13,562 bases of DNA from the IMG/VR virus record IMGVR_UViG_2585427753_000009; one strand, 5' to 3'. Positions 2,913 to 12,658 of the stretch are shown here, in pieces (within the stretch, counting starts at the first letter, position 1; every line of letters starts with the position of its first letter). This DNA comes from a virus (Duplodnaviria > Heunggongvirae > Uroviricota > Caudoviricetes). The notes beneath the pieces are model-generated. The model was not told the origin of the DNA. It made no database searches and saw nothing but the letters and a program-made list of their open reading frames with translations. The translations under genes and the position numbers were made by a program.

Positions 2913-3424
2913 GCCCTTACGATATAATTAAAGGCAATATTACGAGGACGGTTTTCATTAGCTGTTGGCACGACACGAGAGGCGTCGAATCCAAGGTCAT
3001 CGGTTTTGTCTATAGTAGTTGTGTTATTCGGCATTCTCGCTGATCGTGTTCCTGCATCGTAAAAAGCCCCTCTGATTGCATCAAAAGACATACCGATCCC
3101 GCCATCTGCGAATCCCTCAATATTTCTTATTGCATCCCCCTGTGAAGATAATAATTGTCGCCCGGCATCCACACCACGTCCGTCATCCCAGCCACGAATA
3201 AATTCACCGCGTAAATCGGGAAGACGGAGGGTCGGGTAGGCTCTGGCCAGAACAGGATATTGTTCTTTTGTAAAGGCGCGCCCGTCGCACTTTAACCAGC
3301 CTTCTGGCGGTGTGGCGGTGGGCCACGGAACCGGTACACCAACAGGCAATGCAGAGCCTTCCCCCAAACCAACGTTTTCGTTTTTATCCCTACCTATACC
3401 AACTCTGTATTTTTCACGAAACAA
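2906..3424 (-). CDS. Tail fiber C-terminal variable cassette C (no ATG; conserved part begins at about 3385)
   Basis: ...KNENVGLGEGSALPVGVPVPWPTATPPEGWLKCDGRAFTKEQYPVLARAYPTLRLPDLRGEFIRGWDDGRGVDAG...NYIVRAA. Its first ~57 codons are identical at DNA level to cassette A (inverted), then it diverges. The ORF-track start is a TTG within the invertase-2 upstream region. Confidence 0.75.
   Translation of the reverse strand: MFREKYRVGIGRDKNENVGLGEGSALPVGVPVPWPTATPPEGWLKCDGRAFTKEQYPVLARAYPTLRLPDLRGEFIRGWDDGRGVDAGRQLLSSQGDAIRNIEGFADGGIGMSFDAIRGAFYDAGTRSARMPNNTTTIDKTDDLGFDASRVVPTANENRPRNIAFNYIVRAA
3204..3377 (-). repeat. 174-bp inverted repeat, arm C (perfect match to complement of 1279-1452)
   Basis: See arm A. 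Confidence 0.8.
3359..3384 (-). other. Candidate crossover site C (core at 3366-3377)
   Basis: Reverse complement CGAAAACGTTGGTTTGGGGGAAGG, about 55 bp upstream of invertase copy 2; mirrors the site A / invertase 1 arrangement. Confidence 0.55.
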
Positions 3425-3438
3425 AGAGGATGTTTTTT

Positions 3439-4038
3439 ATGCAAATTGGCTATATTCGTGTGTCAACAAACGACCAGAACACGGATTTACAACGCAATGC
3501 ACTGAACTGCGCAGGATGTGAACTGATTTTTGAAGATAAAATCAGCGGAACGAAATCAACCAGACCGGGATTGAAAAAACTGCTCAGAACGCTATCAGAA
3601 GGAGATACGCTGGTTGTCTGGAAGCTGGACAGACTGGGCAGAAGTATGAAACACCTGATCACGCTTATTGAGGAATTGCGGGAAAAAGGTGTTAATTTCC
3701 GTAGTCTGACGGACAGCATTGACACGTCAACACCCATGGGGCGTTTCTTTTTTCACGTCATGGGGGCTTTAGCCGAAATGGAACGTGAATTAATTGTAGA
3801 GCGTACACTGGCCGGGCTGGCAGCAGCACGCGCACAAGGACGCATTGGCGGACGTCGCCCGAAGTTGACAAAAGAACAACACGAGCAAATAGCGAGGCTG
3901 ATTAAAAACGGTCATGACAGGAAACAACTGGCGATCATTTACGACATCGGCATATCGACGATTTATCGTTATCACCCTGTAGGCGATATACAGGCTGAAG
4001 AAACAACCAGACAGACTCAGGAAAATGAAAACCGCTAA
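3439..4038 (+). CDS. Serine DNA invertase (Hin/Gin/Pin/Cin family), copy 2
   Basis: MQIGYIRVSTNDQNTDLQRNALNCAGCELIFEDK...GRRPKLTKEQHEQIARLIKNGHDRKQLAIIYDIGISTIYRY. Start ATG at 3439 follows AGAGGA with 8-nt spacing; the ORF-track start at 3310 is a read-through extension. Closely similar to copy 1 but with a distinct, longer C-terminal tail. Confidence 0.9.
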   Translation: MQIGYIRVSTNDQNTDLQRNALNCAGCELIFEDKISGTKSTRPGLKKLLRTLSEGDTLVVWKLDRLGRSMKHLITLIEELREKGVNFRSLTDSIDTSTPMGRFFFHVMGALAEMERELIVERTLAGLAAARAQGRIGGRRPKLTKEQHEQIARLIKNGHDRKQLAIIYDIGISTIYRYHPVGDIQAEETTRQTQENENR

Positions 4039-7953: not shown

Positions 7954-8466
7954 TCAGCCAAGCCCAAGCGCGGAACGAATGCGGTCAGGCACAATGTCCT
8001 TGCCGTCCTTCCGGTAGATGTGGTTCAACAGGTCGATTTCCAACAGCGGGCGATCGTTAACGCTCAGCTTGTAGTAGGTGTTTTTGACAGCGTAAGTGTG
8101 TGATGTGGCTTCGCCCTGTTTGGCCTCCCCCATATCAATTTCCGTCACACGCCCGCGCATCTCGATTTCATACAGATCGCTTTCTGCATCGGTGTAGTAT
8201 TCACCCGCAAAACGCAGCAGCGTGCCGTCAATCGTGCCGCCATATTTAAGGAACAGCGCACGAACAGCTCCCCCCATAACAAAACTCGCATCAAGCGCGG
8301 AGTCGTCCAGACCGAGATCAATACTTACCGCCCCCATCATGCCACCACCACGATAGCTGTCGGTTTTGCGCGTCAGTTTGGGCGGCGTGACGGACGTCAC
8401 CTTACCCACTTCGTTTTCACCATCCACAAACAGCGTAAAAAAGCGAAGATGTTTTGGTACAGCCAT
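7954..8466 (-). CDS. Tail tube protein (P2 FII-like)
   Basis: 170 aa with KVTSVTPPKLTRKTDSYRGGGMMGAVSIDLGLDD, matching the P2 FII tube motif as I recall it (KLTRK...YRGxGM...DLGLDD). Start overlaps the sheath stop (ATGA). Confidence 0.85.
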   Translation of the reverse strand: MAVPKHLRFFTLFVDGENEVGKVTSVTPPKLTRKTDSYRGGGMMGAVSIDLGLDDSALDASFVMGGAVRALFLKYGGTIDGTLLRFAGEYYTDAESDLYEIEMRGRVTEIDMGEAKQGEATSHTYAVKNTYYKLSVNDRPLLEIDLLNHIYRKDGKDIVPDRIRSALGLG

Positions 8467-9650
8467 CAGGCACCTCCCAGCACCGCAAATGCGGGACCAA
8501 AGAATTCATCAGTAAACGACTGGTAAAGCTCCATGTCTTCCAGCGGGGGAACAGGCGTATATTTGTAGCGAATACGCACGCGCCCCTGACGTAAATTCGT
8601 GGTGCCGTTATCCACCACGTCATACCAGCACGACGCCCCAATCAGTTTCCCGGCAGTAACCAGTGAATCCAGTTTTGCCCTGATGGCACTGATAACATCT
8701 TTCACGTTCGCAGGCGTCAGTGGACTGTCGATGGTTTCAAACTGCGCTTCCGCAATTGAATCAGCCAGCACCTGTGCGGTTCGGGTATACACCTCAAAGA
8801 TGTAGGCGTTCGTTTCCGGTGTGCGGTTGCCCCAGAAGCGGAACCCGTTGCGACGAATAATGGTCGTGATTTCTTTGTTGTTGAGGCTATTGGCATCGCT
8901 GTCTTCGGCCTGCAACGACCAGAACACATGCCTGGACATCCCCAGCACATTTTTAACCGGAACGTTGGACAGTGATTTGTGCCATCCCTGCTCATGGTCA
9001 ATGTACGCACGAAGGCCGCACGCATAGGCAGGCGCGGGGAACGTTTCGTTTTTGCCACTTTTCGGGTTGTAGGCGATGAAGTCCGGCCATAAGAGCATCA
9101 CCTCACGTTCGTTGAATTTCTGGCGGTAGGTAATCGCCTCAGCCATCGTGTTACAGCCGTGACATGAGGCATACACAAACGCGCGCAGTTTACCCGCAAT
9201 CACGCACAGGGATTTTGTCACCGCCTCCGTGTCCAGCTCCGGCGCGGCCAGAATACGCGGACGGTATCCGATGCTTTCATCCTGCTCTGCAACAAGCAGC
9301 GCATACATCCCCGTATAGCTGCCGTCAGATTCAGAACCACCGATAACCAGTTGATCCTGCGTCTTTCCGTCTTCTTCTTTGTGTTCAGCCACGCGAACGA
9401 CGATCACCTTTGTGCTCACCTGGTCTGCGATGGCCTTAAGCGCACGATAAAGCGTCCCCGTTGTCCCGCATTTTCCCAGCACGTCATTGACGCGGGTCAG
9501 CAGTGTGGGCTTGTTCAGCGGGAACAGCTTCGCGTCCGCATCATCCGCCGTTGCCACGATACCGATAACGCTGGAATCAACATCGTTAATCGCTGTTACC
9601 AGGTCGGTATTTTCCGTAACACGGGCACCATGAAAACGAGTTTCACTCAT
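8466..9650 (-). CDS. Contractile tail sheath protein (P2 FI-like)
   Basis: 394 aa with FPLNKP, KLRAFVYASCHGC, LLWPDF, GWHKSLSNV, LIRRNGFRFWGNRT, YTRTAQVLAD and YTPVPPLED motifs characteristic of the P2 FI sheath family. Confidence 0.88.
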   Translation of the reverse strand: MSETRFHGARVTENTDLVTAINDVDSSVIGIVATADDADAKLFPLNKPTLLTRVNDVLGKCGTTGTLYRALKAIADQVSTKVIVVRVAEHKEEDGKTQDQLVIGGSESDGSYTGMYALLVAEQDESIGYRPRILAAPELDTEAVTKSLCVIAGKLRAFVYASCHGCNTMAEAITYRQKFNEREVMLLWPDFIAYNPKSGKNETFPAPAYACGLRAYIDHEQGWHKSLSNVPVKNVLGMSRHVFWSLQAEDSDANSLNNKEITTIIRRNGFRFWGNRTPETNAYIFEVYTRTAQVLADSIAEAQFETIDSPLTPANVKDVISAIRAKLDSLVTAGKLIGASCWYDVVDNGTTNLRQGRVRIRYKYTPVPPLEDMELYQSFTDEFFGPAFAVLGGA

Positions 9651-9807
9651 AGCTTTAGCCCCTTGTATCCGTTAAATGATTCGGCAACAATCATCACCCA
9701 CCACGCGCGTAATCTCACCCCTGTGCCGTTCTCCCGATCCGGCGACAACAAAAAGCAGTAACCCCCTCCGCACGCACATGCGACCATGCCGCACAGGGAG
9801 GGAACAG

Positions 9808-10917
9808 ATGACCGATACCACCATGCAATTGCTCAGTCAGGGCACAGACCCCGTGAAAATGCCGGATTTTGATATTCTCGCGGAGGGTAAAACGCTGTCA
9901 GGCGTGGCAGAGCGCCTGATGAGCCTGTCACTGACCGACAACCGGGGATTTGACGCGGACCAGCTCACCATCACGCTGGATGATGCGGATTGTCAGTTGC
10001 AGCTACCGCCACGGGGCGCGCGCCTGACGGTTCTCATTGGCTGGAAAGGAGAACCGCTGACAGAAAAAGGCACTTACATTGTTGATGAAATCGCTCACGA
10101 AGGACCGCCGGACAGGCTGACTGTTTCAGCCAGAAGCGCAGATTTTCGGGATGAATTTAACGTTAAACGTGAGGTGTCCTGGCATGATGTGACCGTTGAG
10201 CGTGTGGTATCCGCCATCGCTCATCGGTATGGTCTGAAACCGCAAATCAGCGAAATGCTGATGGATATCGAAATCGACCACGCCGACCAGACCGAAGAAA
10301 GCGACATGTCCTTCCTTACGCGCATGGCGGAAATGCTGGGCGCAATCACCACGGTAAAAAGCGGTAATCTGTTATTCATTATGCCAGGCGGTGGCGTGAA
10401 CGCACAGGGCCAGCCGTTGCCATCGTTCGCCATCACGCGCAGCAGTGGCGATCGCCATCAGTTCCGCATTGCTGACCGCGAAGCGTATACGGGGGTACGC
10501 GCTTACTGGCTTGATCTTAATTACGGGAAAAAGAAAAAAGTCAGCGTGAAACACCGCAAACCGCCAAAACCCAAAAAGGAGAAAAGCAGCAGCCGTGAAG
10601 GTGATTATATGGAAGGCGCGGAAGGCAATGTGTTTGTGTTACGCAAGACTTATCAGAACGAGCAGGCAGCAAGACGCGCAGCGGCGGCAAAGTGGCAGCA
10701 GCTACAACGCGGAGCCGCATCATTCTCCATCACGCTGGCATGTGGTCGTGCAGAACTCTACCCCGAAATGCATGGCACGGTAACAGGATTTAAAAGCGAG
10801 ATTGATAATCAGGACTGGATTATTGCAAAAGCCGAGCACACCATCGATAACAGCGGCTTTACCACGCAGCTTGAGCTTGAGGCAAAAATCTCGGAATGGA
10901 TAGCAGAAACAGAGTGA
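9808..10917 (+). CDS. P2 gpD-like tail protein (late control gene D family)
   Basis: Start at ATG 9808 after AGGGAGG. N-terminus LSLTDNRGFDADQLTITLDD...RGARLTVLIGWKGEPLTEKGTYIVDEI matches the gpD-family pattern; sits immediately upstream of the Ogr-like gene as in P2. Contains an unusual Lys-rich low-complexity insert. Confidence 0.72.
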   Translation: MTDTTMQLLSQGTDPVKMPDFDILAEGKTLSGVAERLMSLSLTDNRGFDADQLTITLDDADCQLQLPPRGARLTVLIGWKGEPLTEKGTYIVDEIAHEGPPDRLTVSARSADFRDEFNVKREVSWHDVTVERVVSAIAHRYGLKPQISEMLMDIEIDHADQTEESDMSFLTRMAEMLGAITTVKSGNLLFIMPGGGVNAQGQPLPSFAITRSSGDRHQFRIADREAYTGVRAYWLDLNYGKKKKVSVKHRKPPKPKKEKSSSREGDYMEGAEGNVFVLRKTYQNEQAARRAAAAKWQQLQRGAASFSITLACGRAELYPEMHGTVTGFKSEIDNQDWIIAKAEHTIDNSGFTTQLELEAKISEWIAETE

Positions 10918-10959
10918 GCAACTTAGAATAGCAGCAGCACCACGTTAAGGGAGGTCGCT

Positions 10960-11220
10960 ATGTTCCGTTGTCCGCTTTGTGGCGCATCTGCCCGTATCCG
11001 CACCAGTCGTCCGGAAAATGATTCAAACACCGTGCGGCAAAAGTATTACCAGTGTAACAACCTGGAATGCGGCGTATGCTTCTCAACACTGGAAGCTTTC
11101 CATAAATTCACATCAAAACACACCTCCGGCGTTCACTCTTCAGAAGGTATCCCGTGGCATGAGCTGCCAGCTTCACACAGGGGAAACAATCAGATGAGTT
11201 TGCCTTTACCTCAGAATTAA
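10960..11220 (+). CDS. ogr: Ogr/Delta-family zinc-finger late transcription activator
   Basis: MFRCPLCGASARIRTSRPENDSNTVRQKYYQCNNLECGVCFSTLEAFHKF... has the Cys-x2-Cys ... Cys-x4-Cys zinc finger and the MF-CPLC / RTSR / Y-QC-N signature of P2 Ogr. Strong RBS AAGGGAGG. Confidence 0.85.
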   Translation: MFRCPLCGASARIRTSRPENDSNTVRQKYYQCNNLECGVCFSTLEAFHKFTSKHTSGVHSSEGIPWHELPASHRGNNQMSLPLPQN

Positions 11221-11411
11221 CAGGCAGAATTGCCGGAGTAACAAAAAAGCGATAGATTACGCGCGGGTGCCTTTCGGCTGATGGTCGGAGGGAATACCCG
11301 AAGGCCAGATGTGGAAAGGCCCCGGAAAACATTTCTGTTTAACCGAGGCCCTAACATATCTACCTTAAGCAAGTGATAGGTTAGCGCCTCTCCAACAAAG
11401 GAGCAAGCGCT

Positions 11412-11552
11412 ATGTCGCAAAAATCGCTTACGGCCATCACATTCTGCGTGACGGTAATCCTCATCATCTGGATGCTACACGGTTCGCTGTGTGAAATACG
11501 GATGAGCTTCTGGGGAGCGGAGTTTGCGGCGTTCTTACAGTGTAAGCAGTAA
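11412..11552 (+). CDS. Hok-family type I toxin (46 aa); not in the ORF track because it is under 60 aa
   Basis: MSQKSLTAITFCVTVILIIWMLHGSLCEIRMSFWGAEFAAFLQCKQ: N-terminal transmembrane helix, the Hok hallmark S-L-C-E-[IL]-R motif and a conserved C-terminal AAFLxCK, closest to HokA as I recall it. AAGGAG RBS with 8-nt spacing; long structured leader upstream; hairpin and terminator downstream. Confidence 0.7.
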   Translation: MSQKSLTAITFCVTVILIIWMLHGSLCEIRMSFWGAEFAAFLQCKQ

Positions 11553-11640
11553 GGAAACCGCGACGGGGGAGCAATCCCCCGTCAATCGGTTGCTAAGGTT
11601 GGCTGAAGTGGCACCCTATCTCACAGACATGAACAACAAA

Positions 11641-11672
11641 CCCGCAGCGTAAGAACTGCGGGTTTTCTTTTT
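11641..11672. terminator. Intrinsic terminator after the hok-like gene (probably bidirectional, also serving the small minus-strand ORF)
   Basis: CCCGCAG-(8 nt loop)-CTGCGGG followed by TTTTCTTTTT on the + strand; the complement is followed by TTTGTTGTT. A second perfect 9-bp hairpin (GACGGGGGA...TCCCCCGTC) lies at about 11569-11590, reminiscent of the hok mRNA 3' fold-back element. Confidence 0.6.
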
Positions 11673-11740
11673 GGAACTATCACTAGCTAGTGTACCGTTA
11701 ACGGCACATAATGCTCGCACAACAAACCTGTTAAAAGAGA

Positions 11741-12022
11741 TTACTCAGCATTCTCCTGCTTCCATTGCCGGATCATTTCATCGGTAACATCACCCTCATA
11801 ACATACCACGTCATACCCTCCATTACGGCTATATGCACTGCGTCCACCACATCTACTACCATTCCTTGCATGATTATAAGGACACGCACAATTGCCTGGA
11901 TAAGATTCAATGGATTCTTTAATTATTTCTTTTTTGATCTGAGCATCAGACTTTCCTGTTGCTGCATATCCGCTAAAAGATACTAAACAAAGGCAGATTG
12001 CCATTAATAAACCACATCGCAT
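11741..12022 (-). CDS. Small secreted Cys-rich protein of unknown function (about 93 aa with signal peptide)
   Basis: From the internal ATG (12022): MRCGLLMAICLCLVSFSGYA|ATGKSDAQIKK... has a canonical signal peptide and four Cys in the mature part. AT-rich. The 131-aa ORF-track version has a non-credible N-terminal extension; exact start is uncertain because the RBS is weak. Confidence 0.5.
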   Translation of the reverse strand: MRCGLLMAICLCLVSFSGYAATGKSDAQIKKEIIKESIESYPGNCACPYNHARNGSRCGGRSAYSRNGGYDVVCYEGDVTDEMIRQWKQENAE

Positions 12023-12259
12023 ACCGATACACTCTATTACTAACCAATCATAGCCCACATCATAAAATCGAGATGAGGAGTACAATACCTTTAACAAGAA
12101 GGTGTCATAACGATAATATGTCGTGCAATTCATCAAAAAAAAGATCTATATCAAAGAGATAGAACTCTTATCAGTGCTTCAGACATCGGCATTCGAGGCA
12201 GCAGAAAAACAGTAAATCTGACGAATTTGCCTTTTCCCAAGATGTTGTCAGATTAAAAA

Positions 12260-12420
12260 GATAGATTAGCGCAGGTACCTGTTGGTGGATTGCAGGAGGA
12301 AAAATGAAGTCGAGTGGAAAAATCCCAGAAAAATTTTTGTTTAACAGAGGTCCTGGTTCACTATGCGAAATACGGAGGAGCTGCAGAAGAATTCTGCTTC
12401 ATCCTTAGAGTTTAAACAGC
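12260..12420 (+). pseudogene. Degraded second hok-like locus (leader retained, toxin ORF internally deleted and frameshifted)
   Basis: 12260-12357 aligns by eye with the leader of the intact locus (11251-11348), e.g. GATAGATTA..., GGAAA..CC..GAAAA..TTT.TGTTTAAC.GAGG.CC. 12358-12378 GGTTCACTATGCGAAATACGG then matches the toxin's GGTTCGCTGTGTGAAATACGG (codons for GSLCEIR), but the RBS, start codon and transmembrane-helix codons are missing and the remainder is out of frame. Confidence 0.45.
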
Positions 12421-12492
12421 ACGTGCACTACCATTGTTTCTGCATATCGCCACACCATCGCCACTCAACCGCCATTGCACAAAATACAAATA

Positions 12493-12519
12493 CAAAAAAA
12501 CCACCCGAAGGTGGTTTCA
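12493..12519 (-). terminator. Intrinsic terminator of the glyW-cysT-leuZ tRNA operon
   Basis: Minus-strand AAACCACC-TTCG-GGTGGTTT followed by TTTTTTTG, about 40 nt past the tRNA-Leu 3' end. Confidence 0.7.
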
Positions 12520-12559
12520 CGACACTGCTTATTGCTTTGATTTTATTCTTATCTTTCCC

Positions 12560-12646
12560 ATGGTACCCGGAGCGGGACTTGAACCCGCACAGCGCGAACG
12601 CCGAGGGATTTTAAATCCCTTGTGTCTACCGATTCCACCATCCGGG
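12560..12646 (-). tRNA. leuZ: tRNA-Leu (anticodon UAA)
   Basis: Reverse complement reads GCCCGGATGGTGGAATCGGTAGACACAAGGGATTTAAAATCCC...GGGTTCAAGTCCCGCTCCGGGTACCA: 87 nt, long variable arm, encoded CCA. Confidence 0.93.
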
Positions 12647-12658
12647 CTCGGGAAGAAA

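What the first reader, a model, noticed from the sequence alone, without database searches (positions are those of the whole stretch)
12260..12420. Second, decayed hok-like copy next to the tRNA-Leu terminator
The leader of the intact locus has a diverged paralogue at 12260-12357 (similar by eye, not identical). It continues straight into GGTTCACTATGCGAAATACGG, which corresponds to the GSLCEIR codons of the toxin. The segment with the RBS, start codon and transmembrane helix is therefore missing (about 120-130 bp by my estimate) and the 3' part is frameshifted. This fits the known tendency of chromosomal hok loci to be inactivated, and the two copies flank the small secreted-protein gene. The divergence argues against an att-site duplication and for an old duplication.
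Basis: seen in the sequence. Interest (0 to 1): 0.45.

Follow-up and report, generated by a model that had tools for sequence, protein, structure and literature searches.

The report
Dead hok toxin-gene relic in prophage
The flagged stretch is a real but dead, drifting copy of a small toxin-antitoxin (hok/sok) locus that sits at the right end of a P2-like prophage inserted in the leuZ tRNA gene, so it is an ordinary pseudogene and not a working or chromosomal element.

Summary
Window 12255-12354 matches the leader of the intact hok locus (11244-11352), and 12355-12421 matches the toxin's 3' codons (11481-11550). These matches are colinear and far above chance. The 128 bp between them (11353-11480) are absent. 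That segment holds the predicted Sok promoter and 5' end, the hok ribosome-binding site, the start codon and the membrane helix. The similarity also reaches about 33 bp into the end of ogr (12215-12237 ~ 11188-11210).

The framing needs correcting. Neither copy is chromosomal. Both lie inside a P88-like (Xuanwuvirus, P2-like) prophage whose att repeat is window 12492-12615. E. coli genomes without the element match only from about 12492.

P88-like phages carry D-ogr-hok-[variable cargo]-attP. Here the cargo is a small secreted-protein gene plus this ogr'/hok' relic.

All carriers whose sequence was examined share the same deletion. These are the listed full-length hits among about 646 E. coli genomes and 21 haplotypes from 30 viral contigs.

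The relic looks unconstrained:
- It diverges at about the synonymous rate of its neighbour.
- It has no conserved ORF.
- It folds no better than shuffled sequence.
- It gives no Rfam match.

It is most likely a non-functional scar of recombination between two related phages. Interest is low.

The parts
10960..11220 (+). ogr (late-gene activator) of the P88-like prophage. Its last ~33 bp are repeated in diverged form at 12215-12237.
   Evidence: Pfam Ogr_Delta 52.4 bits. Annotated ogr/Delta in the identical genome.
11231..11259 (+). Inferred promoter of the intact hok mRNA: TTGCCG, 17-nt spacer, TAGATT.
   Evidence: Read from the sequence. It lies 5 nt upstream of the position where the Rfam model of the hok leader begins, 11265. 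The strict consensus scan did not call it. This is an inference.
11265..11672 (+). Intact hok mRNA. Leader 11265-11411, Hok CDS 11412-11552 (46 aa), 3' UTR with a fold-back element near 11597-11613, terminator 11638-11672.
   Evidence: Pfam HOK_GEF 30.1 bits against a cutoff of 22. PHROG 251 'MokW-like host killing', E=2.5e-23. Rfam RF01794 47.9 bits, E=9e-10, below the gathering score of 59. MFE -174.6 kcal/mol, z=-7.5, with the 5' end paired to ~11597-11613. Terminator found.
11312..11406 (-). Predicted Sok-like antisense RNA (about 11371 down to about 11312) with its promoter: -35 TTGCTC at 11406-11401 and -10 TAACCT at 11383-11378.
   Evidence: Read from the sequence by analogy with hok/sok and hokW/sokW (PMC9841398, PMC8621323). 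Inferred, not tested.
11353..11480 (+). The 128-bp segment of the intact locus that has no counterpart in the relic. It holds the predicted Sok promoter and 5' end, the hok SD, the ATG and the codons of the membrane helix.
   Evidence: Breakpoints from colinear BLAST matches. The junction is identical in all 21 haplotypes.
11741..12022 (-). Small secreted-protein gene (93 aa, signal peptide) lying between the two hok copies. It is cargo of the leuZ-type module.
   Evidence: ORF. PHROG 27544 (unknown function), E=7e-58. pN/pS about 0.07-0.15 between haplotypes.
12215..12256 (+). Relic of the 3' end of a second ogr gene. NLTNLPFPKMLSD* corresponds to NQMSLPLPQN* of the intact ogr.
   Evidence: Possibly extends back to about 12176 (gapped alignment).
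12255..12354 (+). Relic of the hok promoter -10 element (TAGATT, 12262-12267) and of the hok mRNA leader.
   Evidence: 72.5% identity to 11244-11352. The -35 to -10 spacing has collapsed: TTGTCA sits only 11-12 nt upstream. No Rfam match at E<=10.
12355..12421 (+). Relic of the 3' end of the hok coding region: GSLCEIR, then frameshifted, ending near the former stop.
12446..12464 (+). Two direct repeats of ATCGCCAC, 11 bp apart. Probable arm-type integrase sites of attP. They mark where the functional att region begins, about 25 bp after the relic.
   Evidence: One further copy lies in the int-proximal arm at attL. The reverse complement TGTGGCGA resembles the P2-type arm consensus tgTGGaCa (PMC3448106). 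Inferred.
12492..12615 (.). attR identity block (124 bp): the leuZ terminator plus the 3' half of tRNA-Leu. An identical copy lies next to int/yecA. The prophage ends here.
   Evidence: Genomes without the element match only from 12492/12493.
12561..12647 (-). tRNA-Leu (UAA), leuZ. This is the integration target.

Best explanation
The stretch 12215-12421 is a non-functional relic (pseudogene) of a second ogr-hok/sok right end from a P2-like phage. It is carried in the variable cargo region, next to attP, of P88-like (Xuanwuvirus) prophages that integrate into leuZ.

Proposed history. The first and last steps are inferred; the deletion itself is shown.
1. An ancestral phage had ...D-ogr'-hok'-attP(leuZ).
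2. Recombination with a related genome placed a P88-type D-ogr-hok backbone and the small secreted-protein gene upstream. That genome could have been a co-infecting phage or a tandem lysogen at the same site. Most of ogr' was lost in this step.
3. The now redundant hok' locus then lost 128 bp. That removed the Sok promoter and 5' end, the hok SD, the start codon and the membrane helix.
4. Its promoter spacing also collapsed.
5. It has since drifted neutrally while hitch-hiking between an expressed cargo gene and the attP arm.

The relic makes neither toxin nor antitoxin and has no role of its own.
For: Homology and the exact 128-bp gap.

Location inside the prophage: the att repeat is 12492-12615, its twin lies beside int/yecA, and the prophage is about 35 kb long. 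Genomes without the element match only from 12492.

P88, Chuche and P884B11 show D-ogr-hok followed by different cargo. Their identity to the window stops at 11672-11674.

The ogr tail is included in the repeat.

The same deletion is present in every carrier whose sequence was examined:
- The listed full-length hits among 646 E. coli genomes are single pieces of query length.
- So are all 30 IMG/VR contigs, which give 21 haplotypes.

Evidence of relaxed constraint:
- On the same homologous segments the relic copies are 83.7-95.8% identical between haplotypes. The intact copies are 96.6-98.9% identical.
- The relic's divergence (0.04-0.17) is about equal to the synonymous divergence of the adjacent orf93 (0.09-0.16). 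Meanwhile ogr, hok and orf93 show pN/pS of about 0-0.15.
- The only sizeable ORF (12304-12408, 34 aa, with an AGGAGG SD) ends in three different frames and lengths (34, 36 and 13 aa) across haplotypes. It hits no family.
- The RNA folds no better than shuffles (z=-0.8), against z=-7.5 and 5'-3' pairing for the intact mRNA.
- There is no Rfam match, whereas the intact leader hits RF01794.
- Insertions and truncations are tolerated: IS1 at about 12306 and a ~1.3-kb insertion at 12224-12229.
Against: - No intact orthologue of the relic lineage was found. The donor phage is therefore hypothetical, and an in-phage tandem duplication followed by decay cannot be excluded.
- The Sok coordinates and both promoters are predictions.
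- Neutrality rests on few substitutions (7-9 synonymous differences in orf93) and on essentially two or three deep haplotype groups.
- The relic has persisted in every carrier seen, including O157:H7, where the intact copy was lost. That would also fit a spacing or binding role in attP.
- No expression data were available.
Confidence: 0.85

Rival explanations
1. The relic has been exapted as part of the phage attachment region, for example as spacing or as IHF/Cox binding sites of the ogr-side arm of attP. It would then be retained for that reason.
For: It lies directly next to the probable arm-type repeats (12446-12464) and the att block. It is present in every carrier examined, even where ogr and the intact hok were deleted.
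Against: It diverges at roughly the synonymous rate and carries several indels. The segment 12422-12491, closer to the core, shows lower or similar divergence. The probable crossover site in the tRNA body lies about 190-260 bp away, beyond typical arm lengths. Linkage to the att site alone explains its persistence.
Confidence: 0.06
2. The relic still produces a functional RNA or a 34-aa peptide (12304-12408) that modulates the intact hok/sok locus or something else.
For: A strong AGGAGG-N4-ATG precedes a 34-codon ORF that runs in frame into GSLCEIR. The -10 hexamer TAGATT is retained.
Against: The ORF ends in three different frames and lengths across haplotypes. It matches no family. Its apparent conservation at the start is partly an artefact of the search pattern used. 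The -35 to -10 spacing is only 11-12 nt. The fold z-score is -0.8. The part of the leader that the predicted Sok 5' end would recognise is deleted.
Confidence: 0.04
3. It is an inactivated chromosomal hok locus native to the region downstream of leuZ.
For: Chromosomal hok loci of E. coli K-12 are known to be inactivated. This rests on prior knowledge (Pedersen and Gerdes 1999), which I did not read here.
Against: 5425 of 5426 genomes share only 12492 onwards. The relic lies between the prophage genes and the attR block. Other leuZ-occupying islands lack it. The same module is found in viral contigs.
Confidence: 0.01
4. The similarity is chance resemblance of AT-rich sequence, or is part of the att-site duplication.
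For: None beyond the low complexity of parts of the leader.
Against: Score 82 against 22 +/- 3 for shuffles. There are three colinear matches. A database-wide search independently returns hok leaders. The att repeat was mapped elsewhere.
Confidence: 0.01

Closest known systems
hok/sok type I toxin-antitoxin loci (R1 hok/sok; prophage hokW/sokW of Sp5; PHROG 251, Pfam PF01848, Rfam RF01794)
   Same: The relic is homologous to the leader and the last codons of a hok locus of the P88/hokW type. The neighbouring intact copy has the family's hallmarks: a Hok/Gef peptide, a structured leader, 5'-3' fold-back pairing and a terminator. It is 84% identical in DNA to Stx2-phage hok loci.
   Different: The relic lacks the toxin start codon and membrane helix, the Sok promoter and the family's RNA structure. 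It is a pseudogene, not a working member.
Inactivated chromosomal hok loci of E. coli K-12 (hokA, C, D, E and others, disrupted by IS elements or rearrangements; from prior knowledge)
   Same: A hok locus that has lost function and persists as a remnant.
   Different: This one is prophage-borne, not chromosomal. It was inactivated by an internal 128-bp deletion plus point and indel decay, not by an IS. It sits beside an intact paralogue.
Right-end cargo ('moron') region between ogr and attP of P2-like phages (Peduoviridae; P88/Xuanwuvirus)
   Same: Same position and gene order: D-ogr-hok-cargo-attP-int. The cargo differs between phages. A long tRNA-restoring core is typical of tRNA-integrating P2/186-like phages (PMC3448106).
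   Different: Here the cargo contains a second, degenerate ogr'-hok' end. No such repeat was seen in P88, Chuche or P884B11.

Membership tests
hok/sok type I toxin-antitoxin locus (functional member) | ORF for a Hok/Gef peptide with a start codon, an N-terminal membrane helix and a conserved C-terminal part | tested here: not met
   Only the codons for GSLCEIR plus a frameshifted tail remain. The 34-aa ORF hits nothing in PHROGs or NCBIfam. The intact neighbour meets this feature.
hok/sok type I toxin-antitoxin locus (functional member) | Antisense Sok RNA gene with its own promoter, opposite the leader | tested here: not met
   The counterpart of the predicted Sok promoter and 5' end (11353-11406) falls inside the 128 bp that are absent. 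The Sok position itself is a prediction.
hok/sok type I toxin-antitoxin locus (functional member) | Structured hok mRNA leader (Rfam RF01794) and long-range 5'-3' (tac/fbi) pairing | tested here: not met
   No Rfam match at E<=10. Fold z=-0.8 with no end-to-end pairing. The intact copy gives 47.9 bits (below the gathering score of 59) and z=-7.5 with 5'-3' pairing.
hok/sok type I toxin-antitoxin locus (descent from the family, i.e. pseudogene) | Significant colinear sequence similarity to a bona fide hok locus | tested here: met
Prophage att-site (attL/attR) duplication | Near-identical direct repeat at both ends of the integrated element, overlapping the target gene | tested here: not met
   The att repeat is 12492-12615, with a 100% identical copy beside int. 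The relic's only partner is 1 kb away, about 72% identical, and internal to the prophage.
P2-like (Peduoviridae, Xuanwuvirus/P88-like) prophage right end | Order D-ogr-(hok)-cargo-attP, with int on the other side of att; high identity to P88 | tested here: met
   Window 8431-11672 is 97.6% identical to phage P88. A full prophage with integrase lies next to yecA.

The most novel reading that the evidence does not exclude
The ogr'-hok' relic is the visible scar of an exchange of the integrase/att module between P2-like phages by recombination in the ogr-hok region. The retained leader fragment has been co-opted as part of attP architecture, or as an RNA that tunes the intact hok/sok locus or the divergent secreted-protein gene. 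If so, dead toxin-antitoxin loci could be raw material for phage regulatory DNA.
Probability: 0.05. Interest if true: 0.45.

Novelty: new member of a known kind. Interest (0 to 1): 0.15.

Why it matters
The main value is for annotation and bookkeeping. RefSeq annotates nothing under this stretch in the E. coli genomes listed. About 646 complete genomes carry it, including the O157:H7 lineage, where it is the only hok-like sequence left at this site.

Recognising it as a dead hok locus prevents two errors: calling it a small gene or an sRNA, and counting it as a toxin-antitoxin system.

It also gives a tidy example of two things. One is how P2-like phages build their cargo region next to attP by recombination between relatives. 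The other is how a redundant type I toxin locus is disarmed: toxin start and antitoxin promoter were lost in a single deletion. Neither point is surprising to specialists.

Tried and rejected
- Search for an intact orthologue of the relic lineage. blastn 'distant' against 5,426 E. coli genomes found only copies with the deletion. The relic-specific 23-mer found 30 viral contigs, all with the same architecture. The same pattern, and an arm-repeat pattern, found nothing in the GTDB species representatives. Low-stringency searches of phages and plasmids returned nothing closer than the P88-type hok leaders at 72.5%.
- tblastn of the ogr' tail peptide against phages gave no match.
- Self-comparison of P88, Chuche, P884B11 and the copA-side island showed no second hok remnant, so the relic is specific to the leuZ-type module.
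- Other elements at leuZ are unrelated islands without hok: a type I R-M island and IS-rich islands.
- The idea that the 34-aa ORF is a real gene was rejected because its frame is not conserved.
- The consensus promoter scan called neither hok promoter. The promoter statements therefore rest on reading the sequence.
- The literature searches found no description of this relic.

Full report
**1. What is in the sequence**

The window ends with pgsA and the glyW-cysT-leuZ tRNA cluster on the minus strand. To the left lie P2-type tail genes, gene D and ogr (10960-11220, Pfam Ogr_Delta). Next comes a 46-codon Hok/Gef gene (11412-11552). It scores 30.1 bits on Pfam HOK_GEF against a cutoff of 22, and E=2.5e-23 on PHROG 251 'MokW-like host killing'.

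The Rfam model RF01794 is named sok but aligns on the sense strand and ends at the start codon. It matches the hok leader at 11265-11422 with 47.9 bits (E about 1e-9, below the gathering score of 59).

The RNA 11265-11672 folds far better than shuffled sequence (-174.6 kcal/mol, z=-7.5). Its first 15 nt pair with about 11597-11613, and a terminator lies at 11638-11672. This is the 5'-3' fold-back that characterises hok mRNAs (PMC9841398). The neighbouring locus is therefore a credible intact hok/sok-type locus. [quoted passage not shown]

**2. Check of the observation**

A BLAST self-comparison gives three colinear matches:
- 12255-12354 ~ 11244-11352 (72.5%, E=1e-8)
- 12355-12382 ~ 11481-11508 (85.7%, E=2.5e-4)
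- 12215-12237 ~ 11188-11210 (82.6%, E=0.13)

A local alignment scores 82, against 22.4 +/- 3.3 for dinucleotide-preserving shuffles. The 3' part aligns to about 12421 / 11550 (z=6.2). Searched against 2.3 Gb of phage genomes, the relic's top hits are the hok leaders of P88-like phages (E=1e-3).

The segment without a counterpart is 11353-11480, 128 bp. The junction reads ...GAGGTCCT|GGTTCACTATGCGAAATACGG. This translates to GSLCEIR and then leaves the Hok frame, giving GSLCEIRRSCRRILLHP*. The one addition is that the similarity starts earlier, inside the last codons of ogr: NLTNLPFPK...* against NQMSLPLPQN*.

**3. Context: a prophage, not the chromosome**

The window is 100% identical to E. 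coli FORC_069. There, a complete P2-like prophage of about 35 kb runs from an integrase next to yecA to this region.

The two ends share a 124-bp identical block, window 12492-12615. It consists of the leuZ terminator plus the 3' half of tRNA-Leu. Of 5,426 complete E. coli genomes, 5,425 match the query 11700-12560. Most of them match only from 12492/12493 onwards. The relic (12215-12421) is therefore phage DNA lying just inside attR.

Two ATCGCCAC repeats 11 bp apart (12446, 12457), with a further copy in the int-side arm, resemble P2-type arm sites for integrase (consensus tgTGGaCa in PMC3448106). They mark the start of the functional att region.

**4. Comparison with relatives**

Window 8431-11672 is 97.6% identical to phage P88 (Xuanwuvirus, Peduoviridae). 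Identity to P88, Chuche and P884B11 stops at 11672-11674, just after the hok terminator. Beyond that point each phage carries different cargo before attP/int.

More than a thousand E. coli genomes have ogr-hok of this type at various sites. Here the cargo is a 93-aa secreted-protein gene (PHROG 27544, unknown function) plus the ogr'/hok' relic.

Distribution of the relic:
- It occurs in 646 complete E. coli genomes.
- 313 of these genomes have both hok copies.
- In O157:H7 TW14359, window 10154-11689 has been deleted. That removes ogr and the intact hok, and leaves only the small gene and the relic, next to IS elements. Other listed O157:H7 genomes match only from 11690.

All listed full-length hits, and all 30 IMG/VR contigs found with a relic-specific 23-mer (21 haplotypes), show exactly the same deletion junction. 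The deletion was thus a single old event. No intact version of this lineage was found anywhere I could search. P88, Chuche and P884B11 have no second hok remnant.

**5. Is the relic under constraint?**

On the same homologous segments in the same genomes, the relic copies are 83.7-95.8% identical between haplotypes. The intact copies are 96.6-98.9% identical.

The relic's divergence (0.04-0.17) is about equal to the synonymous divergence of the adjacent small gene (0.09-0.16). Meanwhile ogr, hok and that gene show pN/pS of about 0-0.15. The counts behind these figures are small.

Further signs of decay:
- Indels are frequent in the relic.
- The ORF 12304-12408 has a strong SD, but across haplotypes it ends as 34, 36 or 13 codons in different frames. 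It matches no family.
- The RNA from 12273 folds no better than shuffles (z=-0.8).
- Rfam finds nothing.
- The -10 hexamer TAGATT survives, but the nearest -35-like hexamer is only 11-12 nt away.
- The predicted Sok promoter and 5' end lie in the deleted 128 bp. This rests on reading the sequence.
- An IS1 truncation at about 12306 and a ~1.3-kb insertion at 12224-12229 occur in some genomes.

**6. Explanation**

The best reading is a non-functional scar. An older leuZ-integrating P2-like genome had ogr'-hok'-attP. Recombination with a P88-type relative put a second ogr-hok, with the secreted-protein gene, in front of it and truncated ogr'. The relative could have been a co-infecting phage or a tandem lysogen. 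The redundant hok' then lost its toxin start and its antitoxin promoter in one 128-bp deletion, and it has drifted since. It is retained only by its position between a useful cargo gene and the att arm.

What is shown: the homology, the deletion, the location and the lack of constraint. What is inferred: the order of events and the existence of a donor phage.

Rival readings are an att-arm function (about 6%) and a residual RNA or peptide function (about 4%). A native chromosomal locus and chance similarity or att duplication (about 1% each) are effectively excluded.

**7. Novelty and verdict**

Degenerate hok loci are well known, and so are mosaic cargo regions next to attP in P2-like phages. 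This particular relic is unannotated in RefSeq, and I found no description of it in the literature. It is a new member of a known kind. Interest is low (0.15).

Noticed in passing
window 12492-12615; 12446-12464: The prophage's att identity block is 124 bp (leuZ terminator plus the 3' half of tRNA-Leu). Two ATCGCCAC repeats 11 bp apart lie just inside it, and a third copy lies in the int-side arm. These are probably arm-type integrase sites.
   Followed up: partly
L039 (O157:H7 TW14359) 2465-2541, equivalent to window 10071-10153 joined to 11690: In TW14359 a deletion removed window 10154-11689, which holds the end of gene D, ogr and the intact hok. The small secreted-protein gene and the dead hok copy remain next to leuZ, flanked by IS3-family and IS30 elements. 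Other listed O157:H7 genomes also match only from 11690.
   Followed up: partly
L005 (E. coli CP131_Sichuan) 884-2575, next to copA: A hok - serine acetyltransferase - orf93 island lies at a different chromosomal site. It is 85-90% identical to the window module, and the homology stops at window-equivalent 12226, inside the ogr' tail. A related serine O-acetyltransferase is also annotated in this prophage after the tail-fibre assembly gene (window about 3357-3929, minus strand).
   Followed up: partly
L016, L035, L028 (IMG/VR contigs); junction at window-equivalent 11253: In three viral contigs the module 11253-12491 (hok, orf93, relic) is joined at the hok -10 region to a different phage backbone with other tail-fibre genes, instead of ogr. 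L028 also has a ~1.3-kb insertion at 12224-12229.
   Followed up: no
window 11562-11583 and 11590-11613: Between haplotypes the hok 3' UTR differs by 13-15%, but the hairpin after the stop codon changes on both sides (CGGGGGAGCAATCCCCCG against CGGGGAGGCAACTCCCCG). This suggests the RNA structure is being maintained.
   Followed up: no
window 11281-11376 (+): A 31-codon ORF lies in the intact hok leader (MVGGNTRRPDVERPRKTFLFNRGPNISTLSK) and ends 36 nt before the hok start. No mok-like ORF overlapping hok was seen, so translational coupling here may differ from the R1 hok/mok arrangement.
   Followed up: no
window 11681-11708: Two adjacent palindromes (CACTAGCTAGTG and GTACCGTTAACGGCAC) sit exactly where identity to P88-like phages ends and the leuZ-specific cargo begins. 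This is also where the O157:H7 deletion ends (11690).
   Followed up: no
L040, L041 (other E. coli genomes at leuZ): leuZ is a shared integration hotspot. Unrelated islands occupy the same site and duplicate the same core, including one with a type I restriction-modification system and IS-rich islands.
   Followed up: partly
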